A stretch of DNA of 64,000 bases, taken from the sequence record PZ445521.1, one strand, 5' to 3'. Below, in pieces: positions 25,334 through 34,139 of the stretch (its first letter is position 1; the number at the start of each line of letters is the position of its first letter). Made by a program: the position numbers and the translations under genes. The notes beneath the pieces were generated by a model, which saw only the letters and a list, made by a program, of their open reading frames with translations, was not told where the DNA came from and made no database searches. The stretch is from a phage.

Positions 25334-27430
25334 TTATCCTTGAACGAACTTGTAAGGCATGTTTGTAATATCTATGCAAGACGCAATAATTCCAAGAGAT
25401 GATTCTACTTTCTGTTTAACGTTTGATGAAACAAATGATGCAAAGTCAACTCTGTCTTCTATTTCAATATCACCTGTCATTGCAACCAATTCACCAGTTT
25501 CCATTAAATGGTCTCCATCATAGATTACCGATTCGGTGAGCTCTTCCGTGGTCATAACTTCAGCTTGAATGAGTTTTGTATTATTAGATGTTGTTCCGTC
25601 ATTATTAGAAGCATCAGTTATTTTATTAACTTTGACCATCAATCCACGCGGTAGAATAACTTCAGCTTCTGTTGCTATTCCGAGACTTCCTGGATATACA
25701 ACATTAACTTTATGAGCTCCATCAATTGCCCATCCTATTTGAACTTTAACGTATTCAGGATTTTCTTTATACGCTCTTATTTCGTTTGGATTAATAGTTA
25801 TTCCTTCTTCATTTTTATCAACTGTTAATTCATTGCGAGCTTCTGGTTCTAAAAGACCAATACCAGCATGTGTAATTCCAAAACGTCCAAAAATGATAGG
25901 AGTTAAAGAAGTAGATACAAAATTTCTGAAGTAGAACACTTTATTTTTAACTAACGCTTCATATATAGGAGCAGTCATACTTTGAGCACGATAAACTGTA
26001 ATGCCTTCTGGTATACGGTCACCATTTTCAAAAGCTGAATCTAAGTTATTTATAGCAGATTCAATTTCTTTTTCACTCATTACATCATATCGTTCTGGAT
26101 TGTAACGACCTAAAAGAAGATTATTGATGTCAGTATATCCTGAACCGCAATATTCTCTAATGCCACGCTTTTGTGATGGAGTATATTTAGAACCATCGCG
26201 GGCAATAGTAATATCAATCATTGGACCAGCACCAATTCCAGAAAAACTGTAAATCATTCGTTTGAGGAATTTAGTTTTTGCTGCGTTCCAGGAATTTTTA
26301 GTTATTTCTTCCCAGACTTCATCTGGTTGTCCTTTACGATTTTTATTATGATTAGCAAGCCATTTATCTTTATAATCTTCAAAGAATTGATTTACAGCTG
26401 CTGCGTATTTCTCTAAACATTTTATTGAAGTAGTTGGTTCATTTTTAATTGCATTAAAAATTACTTCTTTAATTTTTTCTGAAACTTCACCGACCCGACT
26501 CAGCGGAAAGAATTTATAATCATAGTGAAGTTCATCTGCCGTTCCTTCAGCAATAATTTTTGCTGCCTTTGTTTTAGAAGCTAATGAATTAATTCCAATT
26601 TTCATTTCTTCTGCTTCGGGAATTAAAGGTGCAGTAGCTGGTTTATTAAAATTAGCTGCTGTAGATTCATACTTCTGGAATAATTCACTTTCAAATCTAG
26701 AAGATTCCAATGACTGACTTTGTGCAATTGCTCTACGGGAAATTTTAACTTTAACGATTACGGCTTGGTCAGAACGTTTATCATTTTCTTGTGCAATTGA
26801 TGCTGCAATTGCTTCATTTTTAGTTACCTGATTTCCGGTATCTTTGTTGATATAAACATCACCAACCTTCGATTCAACCTTAGTAAAGAGTTCAGTACTA
26901 ATTTCTGGAACTCCTGGAATGTCTTCTAGTGATACGTTTTTACGATGTATAAGAATATATGCATACTTTTTATCGTAATCCCAGAGTTCCTTAAGAAGGA
27001 CGTATCTGCCACCTGAACGACTACGGATAAGTCTATCAGCAATAAGTTGAATTTGTCGAGCTTGACCGGCGGTTTTAGACTTAAGAATGCGTAGCATACA
27101 TGCATCAATTTTATACTGACGCATAGTTTGCATTGCAACGGTAAATACTGAATTGATGTAATTAATAGGACTCGGTCCAAGACCCTTTAATTTAGCAATT
27201 GACCCCTTTGCAGTTAATGTAAAAGGAACGATATGCATCATTTTATCGCCCATTTTTAAATCGCGATTAGTATCACCTCCAGATGTATAGGTACATAAAC
27301 GAAAGCCTGGTTGTTCAATTGCATCATCAACATGAACTGAAAAAATTTGTGGTATTTTCTTCTTTGGATTTAAGTTTGTAATCGGAAGAGTAGTATCTTC
27401 GTCAAATAATTCTGTAATGAGTTCCATCAT
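25334..27430 (-). CDS. alt: Alt ADP-ribosyltransferase (copy B, the one matching my memory of T4 Alt)
   Basis: 697-698 aa (two adjacent Met codons); YRAQ, FVSTSL and TEAEVILP motifs. Confidence 0.88.
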   Translation of the reverse strand: MMELITELFDEDTTLPITNLNPKKKIPQIFSVHVDDAIEQPGFRLCTYTSGGDTNRDLKMGDKMMHIVPFTLTAKGSIAKLKGLGPSPINYINSVFTVAMQTMRQYKIDACMLRILKSKTAGQARQIQLIADRLIRSRSGGRYVLLKELWDYDKKYAYILIHRKNVSLEDIPGVPEISTELFTKVESKVGDVYINKDTGNQVTKNEAIAASIAQENDKRSDQAVIVKVKISRRAIAQSQSLESSRFESELFQKYESTAANFNKPATAPLIPEAEEMKIGINSLASKTKAAKIIAEGTADELHYDYKFFPLSRVGEVSEKIKEVIFNAIKNEPTTSIKCLEKYAAAVNQFFEDYKDKWLANHNKNRKGQPDEVWEEITKNSWNAAKTKFLKRMIYSFSGIGAGPMIDITIARDGSKYTPSQKRGIREYCGSGYTDINNLLLGRYNPERYDVMSEKEIESAINNLDSAFENGDRIPEGITVYRAQSMTAPIYEALVKNKVFYFRNFVSTSLTPIIFGRFGITHAGIGLLEPEARNELTVDKNEEGITINPNEIRAYKENPEYVKVQIGWAIDGAHKVNVVYPGSLGIATEAEVILPRGLMVKVNKITDASNNDGTTSNNTKLIQAEVMTTEELTESVIYDGDHLMETGELVAMTGDIEIEDRVDFASFVSSNVKQKVESSLGIIASCIDITNMPYKFVQG

Positions 27431-27482: not shown

Positions 27483-27668
27483 ATAATCTATTGGTAAGAG
27501 AGTACGATATATTTCAAACTTTGGACCTTTTTCATAGGCATCAAATGTTTCTGTGAATTTATTATAAGCATATGCATCTATAAATTCAATCATGATTTGT
27601 GATACAGAAGTAGAAACATCTCCACCTTCTTTTTGAGCCACGACAATTGTTTCTAAGTAAGCTTTCAT
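27480..27668 (-). CDS. hypothetical protein
   Basis: 62 aa ORF between ligase and alt; start overlaps ligase stop. Confidence 0.55.
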   Translation of the reverse strand: MKAYLETIVVAQKEGGDVSTSVSQIMIEFIDAYAYNKFTETFDAYEKGPKFEIYRTLLPIDY

Positions 27669-29128
27669 AAACCAGTTACCTCATGAAAATCACCAAATAC
27701 ATCCTCGAATGTATTAGCTTTAGTTTTATCTTCACGTAAACGAATCGCAATCGGAAGAAATAATTTAACGTAATCAGTGCGGCCATCGGATTTTAACCAA
27801 CCGTTGCATTCGCACTCTAGAATTTTTCCAATATAATAATTTTGATTTTCCATAATGCGAGTACGGTCAAGTTCATGTGATTTTACGCCGGCTTTATCTT
27901 TTAAGCCTGAACCGGCATTTACCTTAATTTTTCCACACTCTGATTCAAGAATGAAACCACCTGCTTTAGTAGGGTCTTTACGGTGAGGATAAATTCCTAC
28001 AATTTTTAAATCAACATCAATTACTTCTTTAAATTTATAAAGATTTTTTGAACGAGCATTTTCCCATAATCCATCGATATTTTTGAGAATAATACCTTCA
28101 AGACCTTGGTCAATATACTTTTTGTAAATTACCTTAGCTTCATCTAGGTTATTTACTACTTGGTTTTCAATTAAAATTACTTTATCATAGCCTGATGTCA
28201 TTTGTTCTAGTTTAGAAAAACGTACATCATATTTTAAACGAAATGCTGGAAGACCATATATTTCTACTAATGGAACATAATCCCAGACCTGAAACTTCAT
28301 GCATTGTGCTTCTTTTTCAGAAATGGTTCCCTTTAAAGATTTATTGGCGATGCCATTAGATGCAGTACGTGATTCAGCTACTTCGGCGAATTCTTTAGCT
28401 TTACTAATTTCAGGATAAGCATCAAAAAGAAAATCTAGGCCTTCTGGTTCCTTTTCAACTTGCTCATGGTATACCAATTCGCCATCAATTAACACACCTT
28501 CTGGATGAATCTGGCGGGCTTCAGCAGTCATTTTGATTAACTCTTCCTTAAGAAGATCTAATCCTAGATATTCATTGCCAGCTCGTGATAAAAGACGAAC
28601 ATCATCTAATTCATCACCTCTGACTTCGGCAAAGCACCGAGCTCCATCAGCTTTTAACTGGGCAAAGGCTGGAAATTTGATATTCTTATTAATGCCTTTT
28701 TCATCATAAGAACTTGCAAGCATTTGAGGTTGTTCAGGAATTAAACCTGGCCAAACTTTGTTCGCAATAGATACTGAAGCGCCACATTCAAGGTCTCGCA
28801 TCATCACTCGACGCAAAACTTCAACATCATCTTTTTTACCATCGGTGATATATCCAGATAATTCCTCAATTGCCGCATTTCCGGTCAATTTCCGAGTAGC
28901 TAACGTGAATTCAATGAAGTCAAGCATATCGGTAAGAGTCAACATTCCAAAACTCTGGGTAGCAATACCAGATTTAGGCCATTTCTTGATATAATACTGC
29001 AACCCACGAGAATAAGTCAGACGATATACTCGTTTAAGCAATTCATTATCTTTATTCTTTTCAAGAATTGCTTGCTTCTGCTTAGTTGAACCAATAGATG
29101 CTATTTCGTTCAGAATTTTAAGAATCAT
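27665..29128 (-). CDS. 30: ATP-dependent DNA ligase gp30
   Basis: 487 aa as T4 ligase; recognised N-terminus. Confidence 0.94.
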   Translation of the reverse strand: MILKILNEIASIGSTKQKQAILEKNKDNELLKRVYRLTYSRGLQYYIKKWPKSGIATQSFGMLTLTDMLDFIEFTLATRKLTGNAAIEELSGYITDGKKDDVEVLRRVMMRDLECGASVSIANKVWPGLIPEQPQMLASSYDEKGINKNIKFPAFAQLKADGARCFAEVRGDELDDVRLLSRAGNEYLGLDLLKEELIKMTAEARQIHPEGVLIDGELVYHEQVEKEPEGLDFLFDAYPEISKAKEFAEVAESRTASNGIANKSLKGTISEKEAQCMKFQVWDYVPLVEIYGLPAFRLKYDVRFSKLEQMTSGYDKVILIENQVVNNLDEAKVIYKKYIDQGLEGIILKNIDGLWENARSKNLYKFKEVIDVDLKIVGIYPHRKDPTKAGGFILESECGKIKVNAGSGLKDKAGVKSHELDRTRIMENQNYYIGKILECECNGWLKSDGRTDYVKLFLPIAIRLREDKTKANTFEDVFGDFHEVTGL

Positions 29129-29394
29129 TGTTCATCCTTTAGAGTTTGGTTTACAGCTCTATTATAAATCAATTCATCATTAAGCTCAGTCAAAGACCTG
29201 TGGTACGTGGTTCTAATTTTATTTCCTTGCATCCAGTGCTTGACGTAAATGAAACCTTGCTCTATACATTTTTTAAAAATTCGTTCGTCTTTTTGAGCTC
29301 GGAATTCTGGATTGCATCTAAAAAATTGATTTACGTGACCGTAATCACGTGTAGTATTACCTTCATTTTCATAAATAGTGTGAACAACAAACAT
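29125..29394 (-). CDS. hypothetical protein (T4 30.x region)
   Basis: 89 aa; translationally coupled to neighbours. Confidence 0.6.
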   Translation of the reverse strand: MFVVHTIYENEGNTTRDYGHVNQFFRCNPEFRAQKDERIFKKCIEQGFIYVKHWMQGNKIRTTYHRSLTELNDELIYNRAVNQTLKDEQ

Positions 29395-30248
29395 TAGAAT
29401 GCTCCTTGGAAAATATTATCACCACTACCACTAGTAAGTCTATTAAAATACCCTGCATCGCCAGGCTTAATATAACTCCATGTATGGAATGGATGCATCT
29501 GATGTGAGTGTGTATAATATGGATGATATGGATTATAAGGATTAAATCCAGGAGTTCTCCAGGTAGTATTCCAACGAAAAGAATCGTTTTTAATCATCTT
29601 TTCGATTGCATCTTTTATAGCTTTTTCACTATCAAAACTTTCTTTATTTTCCTTCGGTGAAAAAAGCTTATTTTCTACATCATTCCATGTATAAACTCGC
29701 TGAGCAGTTTTTGGAATACTGTCACGCTCTCCTCGAGCCATCCAATAAACAGGAACACGTAATATTTCACTTGCATGATCGCAGTGGTGAGCAAGATCAT
29801 CAATATAACAAATTACATTATATTTCTCTTTTGCCTTTTTGAACAACTCTTCTTTTGAAGAATCATGACCACACATCATTACTTCTGAGAAGGCACCAGG
29901 AAAAAGAGCATTCAAATTAAATTGACGATTCAACAGAGCGTCAATAGAATCACCCAATGCTGTAACAGCTACAAAATTATAATCTTCTTTTAATTTGTTA
30001 ATTACACACAGGGCATCTTTATATGGAGACAAGTAACGAATAAAATCTGAACGATTGTATTTTTCAATTAACTTGACGCCAAGTTCTTCATCACAATTAA
30101 AAAGTTTACCTGGAGAAATAAATTTCTCATCTTGGATCATTTTTAAAATATGTTCCAACGGAAGATTATATTTCTGGGCAAAATAAGGAAGTCCTGATTG
30201 CCAGCTTAAACATACTCCATCAATATCAGTTAAAATAGTAGGCTTCAT
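29394..30248 (-). CDS. HAD-superfamily phosphatase-like protein with aromatic/His/Pro-rich C-terminal tail
   Basis: 284 aa; N-terminal DIDGV and internal IDD motifs. Confidence 0.65.
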   Translation of the reverse strand: MKPTILTDIDGVCLSWQSGLPYFAQKYNLPLEHILKMIQDEKFISPGKLFNCDEELGVKLIEKYNRSDFIRYLSPYKDALCVINKLKEDYNFVAVTALGDSIDALLNRQFNLNALFPGAFSEVMMCGHDSSKEELFKKAKEKYNVICYIDDLAHHCDHASEILRVPVYWMARGERDSIPKTAQRVYTWNDVENKLFSPKENKESFDSEKAIKDAIEKMIKNDSFRWNTTWRTPGFNPYNPYHPYYTHSHQMHPFHTWSYIKPGDAGYFNRLTSGSGDNIFQGAF

Positions 30249-30709
30249 AGAGAGTCTCTTAATAGGTTTAACACATCAATAAATTCAGCTTCGGTTAGTA
30301 TTGTATCATCTTTTGTTAGACCACTAGCCATGCTGTGCTTCAAAACTTTTCCTTTCGAGGCTAGTAATGCATCACGAAAGCCCTTGTTTTGAATCGCTGC
30401 TTCAAAATATGCATTTGTATACAACTCTTTCCACGCTGGAGAGTATCTTGAAAATGGAACTCCCAGCCAGAAGAGGGTCCCACGGTCCTGAGCTCTTGCA
30501 TAAGACCTTCCAGCTTGTTGGGCGGCAACCCCGGATAACCCAAATATACGTCTTTGCTGCTCAACATTTTTCACCTTGCATCCTTGGAGGAATCCTTCGA
30601 GACCTCCAAATTGAATACCATCCATGACGAAAGGCCATTGGGCGAAATTACTTAATGCGCATGATGGCCATCTAAAATTGCTTCTAATCTCTAACTCAGA
30701 CATTTTCAA
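30245..30709 (-). CDS. NADAR/YbiA-like (DUF1768) protein
   Basis: 154 aa; LSNFAQWPFVMDG resembles the FSNF..WP..DG core of E. coli YbiA. Confidence 0.6.
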   Translation of the reverse strand: MKMSELEIRSNFRWPSCALSNFAQWPFVMDGIQFGGLEGFLQGCKVKNVEQQRRIFGLSGVAAQQAGRSYARAQDRGTLFWLGVPFSRYSPAWKELYTNAYFEAAIQNKGFRDALLASKGKVLKHSMASGLTKDDTILTEAEFIDVLNLLRDSL

Positions 30710-30902
30710 TACTTATAATTTCAACATCAGCCCAATGACCATAGCAAGGAAGACGAAATTCAACTGGCCAGTTAGGGTCCTTTTCTAATATAATAGACTT
30801 AACTTGTGGTTCTTCATGTTCATCAGTATATGGATTTTTATCTGTTACTTTATATGTGACCTTAATGTACTGAATTCCAAAAATCTTATTAATTATATTC
30901 AT
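30696..30902 (-). CDS. hypothetical protein (30.x region)
   Basis: 68 aa ORF in same-strand operon. Confidence 0.5.
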   Translation of the reverse strand: MNIINKIFGIQYIKVTYKVTDKNPYTDEHEEPQVKSIILEKDPNWPVEFRLPCYGHWADVEIISIENV

Positions 30903-31096
30903 ACTAATTCCTTTAATCCGTAAATAGGAGATAATTCATCACCCATACGAAGGTCTTCATTTCCATCTACCCAGGAAACAATATAAGCCTCTTTTATTTG
31001 AACACCACTCCATTTAAATGGAGGTAGAACCTTAGAAATTAATCCAGGTATACCAACTCCCTTTAATTCAACAGTTTGACCTAAAAAGAATTTCAT
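30899..31096 (-). CDS. hypothetical protein (30.x region)
   Basis: 65 aa ORF, start-stop overlap. Confidence 0.5.
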   Translation of the reverse strand: MKFFLGQTVELKGVGIPGLISKVLPPFKWSGVQIKEAYIVSWVDGNEDLRMGDELSPIYGLKELV

Positions 31097-33593: not shown

Positions 33594-33902
33594 TTATTTA
33601 CCAATAAATTGAAGCAAATGCTCAGCTTTCATACCATTAACAGAAATCAATTTGTCAATAGAAAAACCTCGCCACTCGCCAAGCTCAACATCAAATACTG
33701 GAATCATATCAGTAGATTCTTTCCGAGCAGATTCAGTCAATTTACCAGTTTGCATGGTTGGCATAAAGTCCGCATCACGAGTGCCTTTCATAGTACGAAT
33801 AGTACCATCAGACTTTTCAAAAACTACGTTTGAAATACCCATGGACAATTTAGTTTTCAAAATTTCACGAATTGCTACTTTTTGTTCAGTCGTCAGTTTC
33901 AT
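33594..33902 (-). CDS. hypothetical protein (position of 31.1)
   Basis: 102 aa ORF. Confidence 0.6.
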   Translation of the reverse strand: MKLTTEQKVAIREILKTKLSMGISNVVFEKSDGTIRTMKGTRDADFMPTMQTGKLTESARKESTDMIPVFDVELGEWRGFSIDKLISVNGMKAEHLLQFIGK

Positions 33903-34139
33903 TTATTTACCTATTACAGTTTTAATATGAGTTGTTCCACGTTCTTTAAGAGTGGAAAGCAATTTTTGGCATTTTTCTAAATCAGATTTCCAACTATACG
34001 GCCTATCAATACAAACCCATTCTGACTTATAATACTGTTTCCATTTAGAGAAAAAATACTTCTTATACTCTACAGCAAATGAAATGTTCTCGTTAGAATA
34101 AGAACTAATTGCTGTGAGCTGTACCAAACGAAATTTCAT
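33903..34139 (-). CDS. hypothetical protein (position of 31.2)
   Basis: 78 aa ORF. Confidence 0.55.
   Translation of the reverse strand: MKFRLVQLTAISSYSNENISFAVEYKKYFFSKWKQYYKSEWVCIDRPYSWKSDLEKCQKLLSTLKERGTTHIKTVIGK

What the first reader, a model, noticed from the sequence alone, without database searches (positions are those of the whole stretch)
29394..30248. HAD-type phosphatase-like protein with an unusual aromatic/His/Pro-rich tail
The 284-aa product begins with the HAD motif I (LTDIDGVCLSW) and carries an IDD motif, like the phosphatase domain of PNK. It ends in a low-complexity tail (NPYNPYHPYYTHSHQMHPFHTWSY) that is not part of a normal HAD fold. It is translationally coupled to the NADAR-like gene upstream. 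It could be a nucleotide or ADP-ribose-phosphate phosphatase working in the same pathway.
Basis: partly seen in the sequence, partly recalled or inferred. Interest (0 to 1): 0.35.

Follow-up and report, generated by a model that had tools for sequence, protein, structure and literature searches.

The report
T4 gp30.2: nucleotidase-like HAD phosphatase
This gene is the phage T4 "30.2" gene, a widely conserved but never characterised phage enzyme that looks like a small-molecule (most likely deoxynucleotide) phosphatase with a floppy, fast-evolving tail, and published transposon data show no requirement for it alongside the neighbouring anti-defence gene against DarTG1.

Summary
The window is Shigella phage JK38, a T4-type phage. 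The ORF at 29394-30248 (- strand, 284 aa) is the ortholog of T4 gene 30.2, annotated "hypothetical".

- All four HAD motifs are present and invariant in the family (D8-x-D10-G, T96, K132, D150-D151).
- The AlphaFold model is confident for residues 1-195.
- The tail is the most aromatic/His/Pro-rich stretch in the window and is predicted to be disordered.
- The gene overlaps the upstream NADAR gene by ATGA.

- **Not PNK-like.** The enzyme has a 77-residue helical cap. Its best sequence and structure matches are 5'(3')-deoxyribonucleotidases (3bwv at E=1.5e-5 with a family profile; 2jao at Foldseek 1e-8). It probably acts on free nucleotides.
- **Not shown to work with the NADAR gene.** That gene is AdfN, a known anti-DarTG1 enzyme. 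It sits near 30.2 in only 39 of 77 related loci. In published T4 transposon data, 30.2 insertions cost nothing under DarTG1 (log2FC -0.12, against -7.25 for adfN).
- **DNA ligase is the steadier neighbour**, found in 73 of 77 loci.
- **The tail varies by lineage** and carries a short conserved C-terminal motif.

Verdict: an uncharacterised nucleotidase-like HAD subfamily. Substrate and role are inferred, not shown. Interest is modest.

The parts
29394..30248 (-). Gene 30.2 CDS (284 aa plus stop), ortholog of T4 gene 30.2
   Evidence: ORF list. JK38 annotation 'gp30.2 protein'. PHROG 420 at E=1.9e-90.
29658..30248 (-). HAD catalytic core plus cap, residues 1-197
   Evidence: AlphaFold2 pLDDT above 90 for residues 1-195. 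Foldseek HAD matches. dN/dS of 0.02-0.06.
30216..30227 (-). HAD motif I, DIDG. D8 is the nucleophile and D10 the acid/base.
   Evidence: Invariant in alignment A1. Aligned to motif I of 2jao. Translation check.
29985..30215 (-). C1 cap, residues 12-88. A helical insertion carrying W16, F43 and Y64.
   Evidence: Helices at 16-26, 32-40, 46-49, 54-65, 68-72 and 77-86 in the model. W16, F43 and Y64 align to F, F and Y of cytosolic deoxyribonucleotidase.
29961..29963 (-). HAD motif II, T96
   Evidence: Nearly invariant. Lies at the end of strand 91-96.
29916..29927 (-). R108-Q-F-N111, family-specific conserved residues after motif II. A role in binding the substrate phosphate is inferred.
   Evidence: R108 is 100% and N111 97% conserved in 131 distant members. 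R108 aligns to a Lys in 3bwv.
29853..29855 (-). HAD motif III, K132
   Evidence: Invariant.
29796..29801 (-). HAD motif IV, D150-D151 (Mg2+ ligands)
   Evidence: Invariant in A1. D151 is 98% conserved in distant members.
29397..29657 (-). C-terminal tail, residues 198-284. Variable between lineages and absent in many homologs.
   Evidence: Tail length distribution. dN/dS of 0.04-0.3 in close pairs. pLDDT mostly below 60.
29589..29639 (-). Charged amphipathic helix of the tail, residues 204-220
   Evidence: Helix in both models. The first 30 tail residues are 36% K/R/E/D across the family.
29472..29576 (-). Aromatic/His/Pro-rich low-complexity segment, residues 225-259
   Evidence: Highest W/Y/F/H/P density in the window. 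'THSHQ' is a 5-residue insertion relative to T4-type sequences.
29433..29471 (-). Degenerate copy of the conserved C-terminal tail motif. The family consensus is G-(T)-G-I-E-Y-L-x-x-Q-P-T; here it reads IKPGDAGYFNRLT.
   Evidence: The motif is found in 27 of 82 long tails, always 13-19 residues from the C-terminus. Alignment A4.
30245..30703 (-). Upstream gene 30.3 = adfN (NADAR DNA ADP-ribosylglycohydrolase). Its stop overlaps the 30.2 start (ATGA).
   Evidence: Pfam PF08010 at E=4.8e-70. JK38 annotation. PMC11825919. Junction sequence.
29125..29394 (-). Downstream gene 30.1 (DUF3045). Overlaps the 30.2 stop (TAATG).
   Evidence: Pfam PF11243 at E=1.4e-63. Its presence correlates with the 30.2 tail.
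27665..29128 (-). Gene 30, ATP-dependent DNA ligase. The most consistent neighbour of 30.2 homologs.
   Evidence: A ligase lies within 4 kb in 73 of 77 loci. ATGA overlap with 30.1.

Best explanation
The ORF is the JK38 ortholog of T4 gene 30.2.

**What it is.** Its first ~197 residues form a Mg2+-dependent phosphomonoesterase of the HAD superfamily.
- D8 would be phosphorylated as the nucleophile, and D10 would act as general acid/base.
- T96 and K132 would hold the phosphate, and D150/D151 the metal.
- A helical C1 cap (residues 12-88) would close over the active site. By established knowledge of HAD enzymes, this restricts it to small substrates.

**Likely substrate (inferred).** The cap and core most resemble 5'(3')-deoxyribonucleotidases. 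Three conserved cap aromatics (W16, F43, Y64) align with aromatic residues of the cap of those enzymes; their role in nucleoside binding is recalled, not checked. The most likely reaction is therefore (deoxy)nucleoside monophosphate to nucleoside plus phosphate.

**Expression and role.**
- The overlapping start and stop codons suggest it is made from a chain of translationally coupled genes, 30.3 > 30.2 > 30.1 > 30.
- It is an accessory gene, not an essential one.
- Its role is most plausibly trimming a particular nucleotide pool during infection. This could be pool sanitation, or removal of a nucleotide that host defences sense or convert.

**Tail (inferred).** The C-terminal ~87 residues are a disordered, fast-evolving appendage made of a charged helix, a Pro/Trp/aromatic-rich stretch and a short conserved end motif. 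It probably docks the enzyme to a partner protein.

**Shown versus inferred.** Shown: fold, motifs, conservation, synteny and dispensability. Inferred: substrate class, biological role and tail function.
For: **HAD chemistry**
- The motif residues are invariant.
- The model has pLDDT above 90 for residues 1-195.

**Nucleotidase affinity**
- Foldseek against the PDB puts mouse cytosolic deoxyribonucleotidase 2jao first (1.2e-8) and 3bwv second. Human cytosolic and mitochondrial deoxyribonucleotidases give the best target-normalised TM-scores (0.63-0.71) and rmsd (4.3-5.3 A). Other C1-cap HADs give 0.50-0.59 and 6-9 A.
- The close-family profile (A1) hits 2jao at E=0.019.
- The distant-family profile (A2) hits 3bwv at E=1.5e-5 over its full length. 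Next come the Sdt1/SSM1 pyrimidine nucleotidase, XMP phosphatase and mitochondrial deoxyribonucleotidase.
- Pfam NT5C matches 6 of 36 members below threshold, best 1.2e-4.
- In the viral structure library, matches beyond the family itself are named 5' nucleotidase, nucleotidase or deoxyribonucleotidase.

**Precedents**
- PBS1 Dtm is a phage protein resembling mitochondrial deoxyribonucleotidase only by fold (16% sequence identity). It was shown to be a Mg2+-dependent dTMP phosphatase (PMC12697855).
- T5 Dmp is another HAD-motif dNMP phosphatase. It acts as an anti-Kongming factor by removing dAMP (10.1101/2024.12.20.629578).

**Selection and context**
- Core dN/dS is 0.02-0.06.
- In marine T4-like contigs the homolog follows a MazG nucleotide pyrophosphohydrolase gene.
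- It is non-essential in T4: 72 of 72 TA sites tolerate insertions.
Against: - No enzymatic data exist for any family member.
- The window protein itself reaches no Pfam or NCBIfam threshold.
- Haloacid dehalogenases and sugar or other small-molecule phosphatases have nearly equal Foldseek E-values. The nucleotidase call therefore rests on TM-score, rmsd and profile ranking.
- F43 and Y64 are not conserved in the distant half of the family: F at 25% and F at 50%.
- T4 recycles host dNMPs, so a general dNMP phosphatase looks counter-productive.
- No phenotype appeared in LB, M9 or DarTG1. No 30.2 phenotype is mentioned in that paper's main text.
- The strong linkage to DNA ligase is not explained by this model.
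Confidence: 0.55

Rival explanations
1. It is a DNA (or RNA) end-healing 3'-phosphatase. It would remove 3'-phosphates at nicks so that the co-expressed DNA ligase (gene 30) can seal them, working like the phosphatase domain of PNK/PNKP.
For: - A DNA ligase lies within 4 kb of the 30.2 homolog in 73 of 77 viral loci. It is usually directly downstream, with overlapping or near-overlapping stop and start codons.
- A distant member sits between a 362-aa ATP-dependent ligase and an HpaII restriction enzyme in a contig that is not T4-like.
- Another distant T4-like contig has ligase > 88-aa ORF > HAD.
- There is a weak PHROG match to polynucleotide kinase at E=0.0034.
- PNK entries appear in the viral Foldseek list at 6e-7 to 3e-5.
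Against: - A 77-residue C1 cap covers the active site. By established knowledge of the family, HAD enzymes that act on macromolecules are cap-less.
- Nucleotidases outrank PNK-type domains in all searches.
- The family persists at the same syntenic position in marine T4-like contigs, where no ligase was detected near the gene: Cpn10-like > MazG > HAD. Ligase linkage can therefore be inherited gene order. The ligase model used there was weak, however; it missed a Pfam-confirmed ligase in L095.
- To my knowledge T4 already has the PseT 3'-phosphatase.
- Ligase is essential in T4, while 30.2 insertions have no cost.
Confidence: 0.12
2. It is a small-molecule phosphatase for a non-nucleotide substrate, such as a sugar phosphate, phosphoglycolate, FMN or another metabolite, as many C1-cap HAD enzymes are.
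For: - Foldseek E-values for haloacid dehalogenase-type and HDHD4/NANP-type HADs are close to those for nucleotidases.
- Source annotations of homologs include 'FMN phosphatase YigB'.
- A viral structure match at 6e-13 is named 'Phosphoglycolate phosphatase'.
- HAD phosphatases are notoriously promiscuous (established knowledge).
Against: - The only PDB sequence hits at E<0.02 are nucleotide phosphatases, apart from magnesium-dependent phosphatase 1 at E=0.017.
- The lowest rmsd and best target-normalised TM-scores go to deoxyribonucleotidases.
- The conserved cap Trp/Phe/Tyr align with cap aromatics of those enzymes.
- A T4-type phage has no obvious need for sugar-phosphate hydrolysis.
Confidence: 0.2
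3. It is an ADP-ribose-phosphate (or other NAD-derived) phosphatase that acts with the upstream NADAR enzyme AdfN in one counter-defence pathway.
For: - ATGA translational coupling to adfN occurs in Tequatrovirus-type genomes.
- The Alt ADP-ribosyltransferase gene lies nearby.
- The authors who characterised AdfN note that it works fully only in T-even infections. They suggest that an additional T-even protein may be needed (PMC11825919).
Against: - T4 transposon sequencing under DarTG1 gives 30.2 a log2FC of -0.12 (p=0.61). adfN gives -7.25.
- adfN is near 30.2 in only 39 of 77 loci.
- AdfN removes ADP-ribose from DNA in vitro on its own.
- To my knowledge, removing ADP-ribose from DNA would release ADP-ribose, which has no phosphomonoester to hydrolyse.
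- Presence of the tail does not track 30.3.
Confidence: 0.04

Closest known systems
5'(3')-deoxyribonucleotidases (human and mouse cytosolic cdN and mitochondrial mdN; S. epidermidis 3bwv; Pfam NT5C PF06941)
   Same: - HAD core with a helical C1 cap.
- The spacing from motif I to II (88 residues) and from II to III (36) is close to that of mdN as I recall it.
- These are the best structure matches and the best profile matches.
- Cap aromatics W16, F43 and Y64 align with F, F and Y of cdN.
- R108 aligns with a Lys of 3bwv.
   Different: - Only 14-19% sequence identity.
- The window protein does not reach the Pfam NT5C threshold.
- The gap between motifs III and IV is longer.
- It has a family-specific R108/N111 pair and, in many members, a long disordered tail.
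- No activity has been measured.
Bacillus phage PBS1 dTMP phosphatase Dtm (PMC12697855)
   Same: A phage-encoded protein that resembles mitochondrial deoxyribonucleotidase only by fold (16% sequence identity). It proved to be a Mg2+-dependent dNMP phosphatase, so it is a direct precedent for the inference made here.
   Different: Dtm serves dU-DNA synthesis by destroying dTMP. JK38 and T4 have no such DNA chemistry.
Phage T5 Dmp, deoxynucleoside-5'-monophosphatase and anti-Kongming factor
   Same: - It is a phage protein whose N-terminal WDLDGT matches HAD motif I; the catalytic Asp is D22.
- It dephosphorylates dNMPs released from host DNA.
- It is an accessory counter-defence role of the kind proposed here as the novel reading.
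   Different: - No detectable relationship beyond motif I: hhalign probability 1.2%.
- T5 Dmp is a pre-early gene in the first-step-transfer DNA.
- T5 excretes the nucleosides, whereas T4-type phages recycle dNMPs.
Phosphatase domain of T4 polynucleotide kinase (PseT) and PNKP
   Same: Same superfamily and same DxDG catalytic chemistry. Linked to a ligase in its biology. Weak PHROG hit at E=0.0034.
   Different: PNK-type domains are cap-less and fused to a kinase, and they act on polynucleotide ends. gp30.2 has a 77-residue cap and no kinase domain, and it ranks closer to nucleotidases.

Membership tests
HAD superfamily (phosphatase branch) | Motif I, DxDx(T/V), at the end of the first strand. 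The second Asp marks phosphatases and mutases. | tested here: met
   D8-I-D10-G-V. Invariant in A1 and 99% conserved in distant members. Aligned to motif I of 2jao.
HAD superfamily (phosphatase branch) | Motif II (S/T), motif III (K) and motif IV (DD or DxxxD) | tested here: met
   T96, K132 and D150-D151 are conserved. They sit on strands 91-96 and 145-150 and before helix 133-142 in the model.
HAD superfamily (phosphatase branch) | Rossmann-like alpha/beta core fold | tested here: met
   AlphaFold2 pLDDT above 90 for residues 1-195. 110 PDB Foldseek matches at E<=1e-3; all 50 listed are HAD-fold proteins.
HAD superfamily (phosphatase branch) | Pfam PF00702 or PF13419 gathering threshold | tested here: not met
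   No hit for the window protein. Sub-threshold hits in 9 and 4 of 36 members, best 3.5e-4.
5'(3')-deoxyribonucleotidase family (NT5C, PF06941) | Curated Pfam model score above threshold | tested here: not met
   No hit for the window protein. 6 of 36 members match at best 1.2e-4. A 'faint' NT5C hit is on record for P0230.
5'(3')-deoxyribonucleotidase family (NT5C, PF06941) | C1 helical-bundle cap inserted directly after motif I | tested here: met
   Helices span residues 16-86, between motif I and strand 91-96. The best rmsd and TM-scores are to cdN, mdN and 3bwv.
5'(3')-deoxyribonucleotidase family (NT5C, PF06941) | Aromatic cap residues that stack on the base and select deoxyribose | tested here: inconclusive
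   - W16, F43 and Y64 align to F, F and Y of 2jao.
- They are invariant or nearly so in the close family.
- W16 is 95% conserved in distant members, but F43 and Y64 are not.
- The roles of the cdN residues are recalled from Wallden et al. 2007 and were not checked here.
5'(3')-deoxyribonucleotidase family (NT5C, PF06941) | Mg2+-dependent hydrolysis of dNMPs | not testable with these tools
   Needs an enzyme assay.
PNK/PNKP-type polynucleotide 3'-phosphatase domain | Cap-less (C0) active site open to polynucleotide ends, usually fused to a P-loop kinase | tested here: not met
   A 77-residue cap is present. There is no kinase domain. The only link is a PHROG 415 hit at E=0.0034.
T5 Dmp family | Detectable sequence homology to T5 Dmp | tested here: not met
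   hhalign of A1 against T5 Dmp aligns only 36 columns around motif I, with probability 1.2%.
AdfN/NADAR anti-DarTG1 module | Obligate co-occurrence with adfN | tested here: not met
   adfN lies within 4 kb in 39 of 77 loci.
AdfN/NADAR anti-DarTG1 module | Genetic requirement for growth on a DarTG1 host | tested here: not met
   Published T4 HIDEN-SEQ table: 30.2 at log2FC -0.12 (p=0.61) and 30.3 at -7.25.

The most novel reading that the evidence does not exclude
gp30.2 is the T4-superfamily counterpart of T5 Dmp. It would be a selective dNMP phosphatase that removes a particular nucleotide released when the phage degrades host DNA, for example dAMP, m6-dAMP, dIMP or another non-canonical dNMP. 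This would starve nucleotide-sensing or nucleotide-converting defences such as Kongming or PUA-Cal-HAD of their trigger, without draining the pools the phage recycles. The disordered tail, through its conserved C-terminal motif, would tether the enzyme to a phage partner. gp30.1/DUF3045 is a candidate partner because its presence tracks the tail.
Probability: 0.12. Interest if true: 0.7.

Novelty: new member of a known kind. Interest (0 to 1): 0.33.

Why it matters
- **Breadth.** Gene 30.2 is one of the most widely kept 'hypothetical' genes of T4-type phages. The search found 1,450 clusters (at 50% identity) at E<=1e-3, from enterobacterial to marine phages. It has no assigned function and no curated family.
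- **A testable assignment.** Placing it as a capped, deoxyribonucleotidase-like HAD phosphatase gives a concrete hypothesis for a model-phage gene.
- **Separation from AdfN.** The evidence argues against the tempting link to the neighbouring, now-famous AdfN anti-DarTG1 gene.
- **Possible payoff.** If the enzyme edits a specific dNMP pool, it would add a second, independent case to T5 Dmp of phages disarming nucleotide-based immune signalling by removing the precursor.
- **Otherwise.** It is an ordinary accessory nucleotide-metabolism enzyme.

Tried and rejected
1. **Direct family searches.** Pfam, NCBIfam and PADLOC searches with the window protein found nothing significant. phmmer against the PDB gave only E=1.5. 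Family profiles were needed.
2. **gp30.2 as the missing T-even partner of AdfN.** I considered this because of the remark in PMC11825919. I rejected it after reading the HIDEN-SEQ DarTG1 table and seeing adfN absent from half the loci.
3. **Homology to T5 Dmp.** Tested with hhalign; only motif I aligned.
4. **Functional link to ligase.**
   - It looked strong in the first 77 loci and in two distant contigs.
   - The 80 metagenomic loci of the distant subfamily showed almost no ligase, and showed the same syntenic slot after a gp31-like gene.
   - I therefore treat it mainly as inherited gene order.
   - Caveat: my ligase HMM was built from T4-type ligases. It missed the 362-aa ligase of L095, so it undercounts.
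5. **Fusion proteins.** P0102, P0139, P0152 and P0214 had extra regions with no Pfam match, so they were uninformative.
6. **Cellular homologs.** The scan of bacterial and archaeal genomes found one phage-sized contig only.
8. **Tail docking.** A second AlphaFold2 run on a homolog with the canonical tail motif and a tail-rich alignment did not dock the tail onto the core. pLDDT stayed below 50.
9. **Promoter and terminator scan.** No more sites than in shuffled sequence.
10. **Literature searches.** Searches for '30.2' by number returned only noise. Residue roles in cdN and mdN could not be confirmed from the held library.
Full report
**1. What and where**

The 2-kb region around the finding is 100% identical to Shigella phage JK38 (MK962755.1), a Tequatrovirus. 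It is 97-98% identical to many T4-type phages.

The ORF at 29394-30248 on the - strand encodes 284 aa. It is annotated there as 'hypothetical protein, gp30.2 protein'.

It lies in a run of - strand genes: alt, alt.1, 30 (DNA ligase), 30.1 (DUF3045), 30.2, 30.3 (Pfam Phage_30_3), 30.4 to 30.9, rIII and 31. Consecutive genes overlap:

| Junction | Overlap |
|---|---|
| 30.3 / 30.2 | ATGA |
| 30.2 / 30.1 | TAATG |
| 30.1 / 30 | ATGA |

These were read directly from the sequence.

**2.

The quoted peptides are present.

In a 36-member alignment of homologs, D8, D10, G11, W16, S18, K132, D150, D151 and R172 are invariant, and T96 is nearly so. In 131 much more distant representatives, D8, D10, W16, T96, R108, N111, K132 and D151 remain 88-100% conserved. 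These are the four HAD motifs. The second Asp of motif I marks phosphatases (established knowledge of the superfamily).

AlphaFold2 gives pLDDT above 90 for residues 1-195. A moderately confident helix spans 204-220, and pLDDT is below 50 for 229-233 and 241-284.

The tail is compositionally extreme. Its richest 35-residue window is 57% W/Y/F/H/P. The mean over 73 ORFs of the window is 14.6% (sd 6.8%), and the next-highest ORF reaches 43%.

**3. Which kind of HAD**

The window protein alone reaches no curated family:
- nothing in Pfam, NCBIfam or PADLOC;
- PHROG 420 'unknown function' at 1.9e-90, and a weak PNK PHROG hit at 0.0034.

Family profiles and structure comparison are consistent with each other:
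- The close-family profile hits mouse cytosolic 5'(3')-deoxyribonucleotidase 2jao at E=0.019, with D8 and D10 on its catalytic positions.
- A profile of 65 distant members hits the S. epidermidis putative deoxyribonucleotidase 3bwv at E=1.5e-5 over the full length. Next come the yeast Sdt1/SSM1 pyrimidine nucleotidase, XMP phosphatase and mitochondrial deoxyribonucleotidase.
- Foldseek against the PDB ranks 2jao and 3bwv first. Deoxyribonucleotidases have the best target-normalised TM-scores (0.63-0.71) and the lowest rmsd (4.3-5.3 A). Haloacid dehalogenases and other C1-cap HADs have similar E-values but worse superposition.
- In the viral structure library, matches beyond the family itself are mostly named nucleotidases.
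- Pfam NT5C and Hydrolase match some members below threshold.

Between motif I and motif II lie 77 residues forming five or six helices. This is a C1 cap. Cap-less HADs, including the PNK phosphatase domain, handle macromolecules. Capped ones handle small molecules (established knowledge).

The cap residues W16, F43 and Y64 align with F, F and Y of cytosolic deoxyribonucleotidase. I recall these as the nucleoside-binding aromatics from Wallden et al. 2007, but I could not confirm that from the held library. F43 and Y64 are not conserved in distant members.

**4. How wide the family is**

- The first search returned 100 homologs, whose named members are almost all from T4-type phages.
- The exhaustive search gave 1,450 clusters (at 50% identity) at E<=1e-3 and 682 at E<=1e-10. 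Most of the 150 listed are core-only proteins of 190-215 aa.
- A scan of one genome per bacterial and archaeal species found a single hit, on a phage-sized 178-kb contig.
- This is therefore a phage family, ancient within the T4 superfamily.

**5. Neighbours**

*Viral loci.* In 77 viral loci with a 30.2 homolog:
- A DNA ligase lies within 4 kb in 73. It is usually directly downstream, or separated only by 30.1.
- The NADAR gene 30.3 lies within 4 kb in 39.

*Distant members.* Two also sit beside ATP-dependent ligases. One is in a contig that is not T4-like, next to an HpaII restriction enzyme.

*Metagenomic loci.* In 80 mostly marine loci of the distant subfamily:
- My ligase model found almost no ligase. 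That model is weak: it missed the ligase in L095.
- The recurring context is a Cpn10-like (gp31-like) gene, then MazG, then the HAD gene, then PhoH on the other strand.

*Reading.* The HAD gene keeps the same slot downstream of gene 31 whether or not a ligase is there. The ligase linkage is therefore at least partly inherited gene order. MazG is a nucleotide pyrophosphohydrolase, which fits a nucleotide-metabolism context.

**6. The NADAR neighbour and the 'same pathway' idea**

Gene 30.3 is AdfN. It is a NADAR DNA ADP-ribosylglycohydrolase that protects T-even phages from DarTG1 (PMC11825919; PMC11125620).

Its authors note that AdfN is fully active only in T-even infections, and they suggest an additional T-even protein may be needed. 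That made 30.2 a candidate partner.

The HIDEN-SEQ transposon data for T4 (10.1101/2025.11.20.689424, Extended Data Table 6) argue against this:

| Condition | Gene | Result |
|---|---|---|
| E. coli K-12 | 30.2 | non-essential, 72 of 72 TA sites hit |
| Control vs DarTG1 | 30.3 (adfN) | log2FC -7.25, p=0 |
| Control vs DarTG1 | 30.2 | log2FC -0.12, p=0.61 |
| LB vs M9 | 30.2 | log2FC -0.10 |

To my knowledge, removing ADP-ribose from DNA would also release ADP-ribose, which has no phosphomonoester to hydrolyse.

**7. The tail**

*Distribution.* Among 160 distinct family proteins:
- about 64 have a tail of at most 15 residues;
- about 77 have one of 50 residues or more.

*Shared plan of long tails.*
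- First comes a charged helix. The first 30 residues are 36% K/R/E/D.
- Next comes a Pro/Trp/aromatic-rich stretch, 13% Pro and 4.2% Trp against 1.3% Trp in the core.
- In 27 of 82 long tails there is also a motif G-(T)-G-I-E-Y-L-x-x-Q-P-T, placed 13-19 residues from the end.
- JK38 has a degenerate copy (IKPGDAGYFNRLT) and a 5-residue 'THSHQ' insertion relative to T4-type sequences.

*Evolution.* Between close relatives the core has dN/dS of 0.02-0.06 and the tail 0.04-0.3. The tail evolves several times faster but is still constrained.

*Structure.* A second AlphaFold2 run on a homolog with the canonical motif left the tail below pLDDT 50, with no docking onto the core. This fits a disordered region carrying a short linear motif that binds something in trans (inference).

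*Co-occurrence.* Presence of the tail goes with a 30.1/DUF3045 gene downstream: 20 of 29 tailed against 4 of 38 tail-less (Fisher p=1.3e-6). This was not corrected for phylogeny. The tail does not track 30.3.

**8. Mechanism proposed and its status**

- **Shown:** HAD phosphatase chemistry is intact and strongly conserved. The architecture is capped. The nearest known relatives are deoxyribonucleotidases. The gene is dispensable in T4 in the laboratory conditions whose tables I read (K-12, LB vs M9, DarTG1).
- **Inferred:** the substrate is a nucleoside monophosphate, most likely a deoxynucleotide.
- **Precedents:**
  - PBS1 Dtm is a phage protein resembling mitochondrial deoxyribonucleotidase by fold only. 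It was shown to be a dTMP phosphatase.
  - T5 Dmp carries a HAD motif I. It removes dAMP and thereby blocks Kongming signalling.
- **Open:** the biological role. A general dNMP phosphatase would work against T4's recycling of host dNMPs, so selectivity for one nucleotide seems more likely. This is speculation.

**9. Novelty and verdict**

The gene is known as an ORF (T4 30.2, PHROG 420). A few automated annotations already call homologs 'HAD-superfamily hydrolase' or '5'(3')-deoxyribonucleotidase'. No paper found here characterises it.

It is best filed as an uncharacterised subfamily within a known kind of enzyme. Interest is modest. The value lies in a concrete, testable assignment for a very widespread T4-type gene, and in separating it from AdfN.

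Noticed in passing
window 30245-30709 (- strand): The upstream 'NADAR-like' gene is T4 30.3 = AdfN, an experimentally characterised anti-DarTG1 DNA ADP-ribosylglycohydrolase. The mechanical ORF list starts it at a TTG (154 aa). The JK38 record starts it at the ATG six bases downstream (152 aa).
   Followed up: yes
window 29125-29394 (gene 30.1, DUF3045) and loci L002-L079: Presence of the long 30.2 tail goes with presence of a 30.1/DUF3045 gene just downstream: 20 of 29 against 4 of 38, Fisher p about 1e-6, not corrected for phylogeny. One metagenomic protein, P0014 (302 aa), is a 30.2 core fused in frame to a DUF3045 domain. This is either a real fusion or a lost stop codon.
   Followed up: partly
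window 29472-29576: The His-rich part of the tail (YTHSHQM) is a 5-residue insertion specific to the JK38-type lineage. T4-type sequences read 'HPYQTHPF' there.
   Followed up: yes
L095:61-2843 and the 35.7-kb contig: A distant family member (P0230, 196 aa) sits between a minimal 362-aa ATP-dependent DNA ligase and an HpaII-type restriction endonuclease, in a contig that does not look T4-like. A 733-aa adenosine-deaminase-domain protein lies nearby. This may be a defence-island or mobile-element context.
   Followed up: no
L097-L176 (marine metagenome loci): Distant homologs in marine T4-like contigs sit in a recurring order: Cpn10-like (gp31-like), MazG, HAD, then PhoH on the opposite strand. 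This is the same slot downstream of gene 31 as in T4, but no ligase was detected there.
   Followed up: partly
HIDEN-SEQ DarTG1 table (T4 genes 30.4 and 30.5; window 30696-31096): Under DarTG1, T4 gene 30.4, just upstream of adfN, is also depleted (log2FC -1.79, adjusted p 0.014). Gene 30.5 shows -3.0, which is not significant. This is most simply a polar effect on adfN, but it was not examined.
   Followed up: no
window ~33594-34139 (genes 31.1/31.2 region; L001:8595-9140): The JK38 GenBank record calls two small ORFs next to gene 31 (102 and 78 aa) 'tail fiber protein'. In the T4 tables read here, genes 31.1 and 31.2 beside gene 31 are listed as hypothetical proteins. This looks like an annotation error.
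   Followed up: no
window 25334-27430 and upstream (L001:1-2428): Two adjacent Alt-like ADP-ribosyltransferase genes are annotated in JK38: 'RNA polymerase ADP-ribosylase' and 'adenosylribosyl-transferase packaged, injected with DNA'.
   Followed up: no
L080:124-858 (phage T5 dmp): T5 Dmp matches no Pfam family at E<=0.1, yet it carries an N-terminal WDLDGT matching HAD motif I that includes the D22 shown to be essential. It appears to be another HAD phosphatase that curated models miss.
   Followed up: partly
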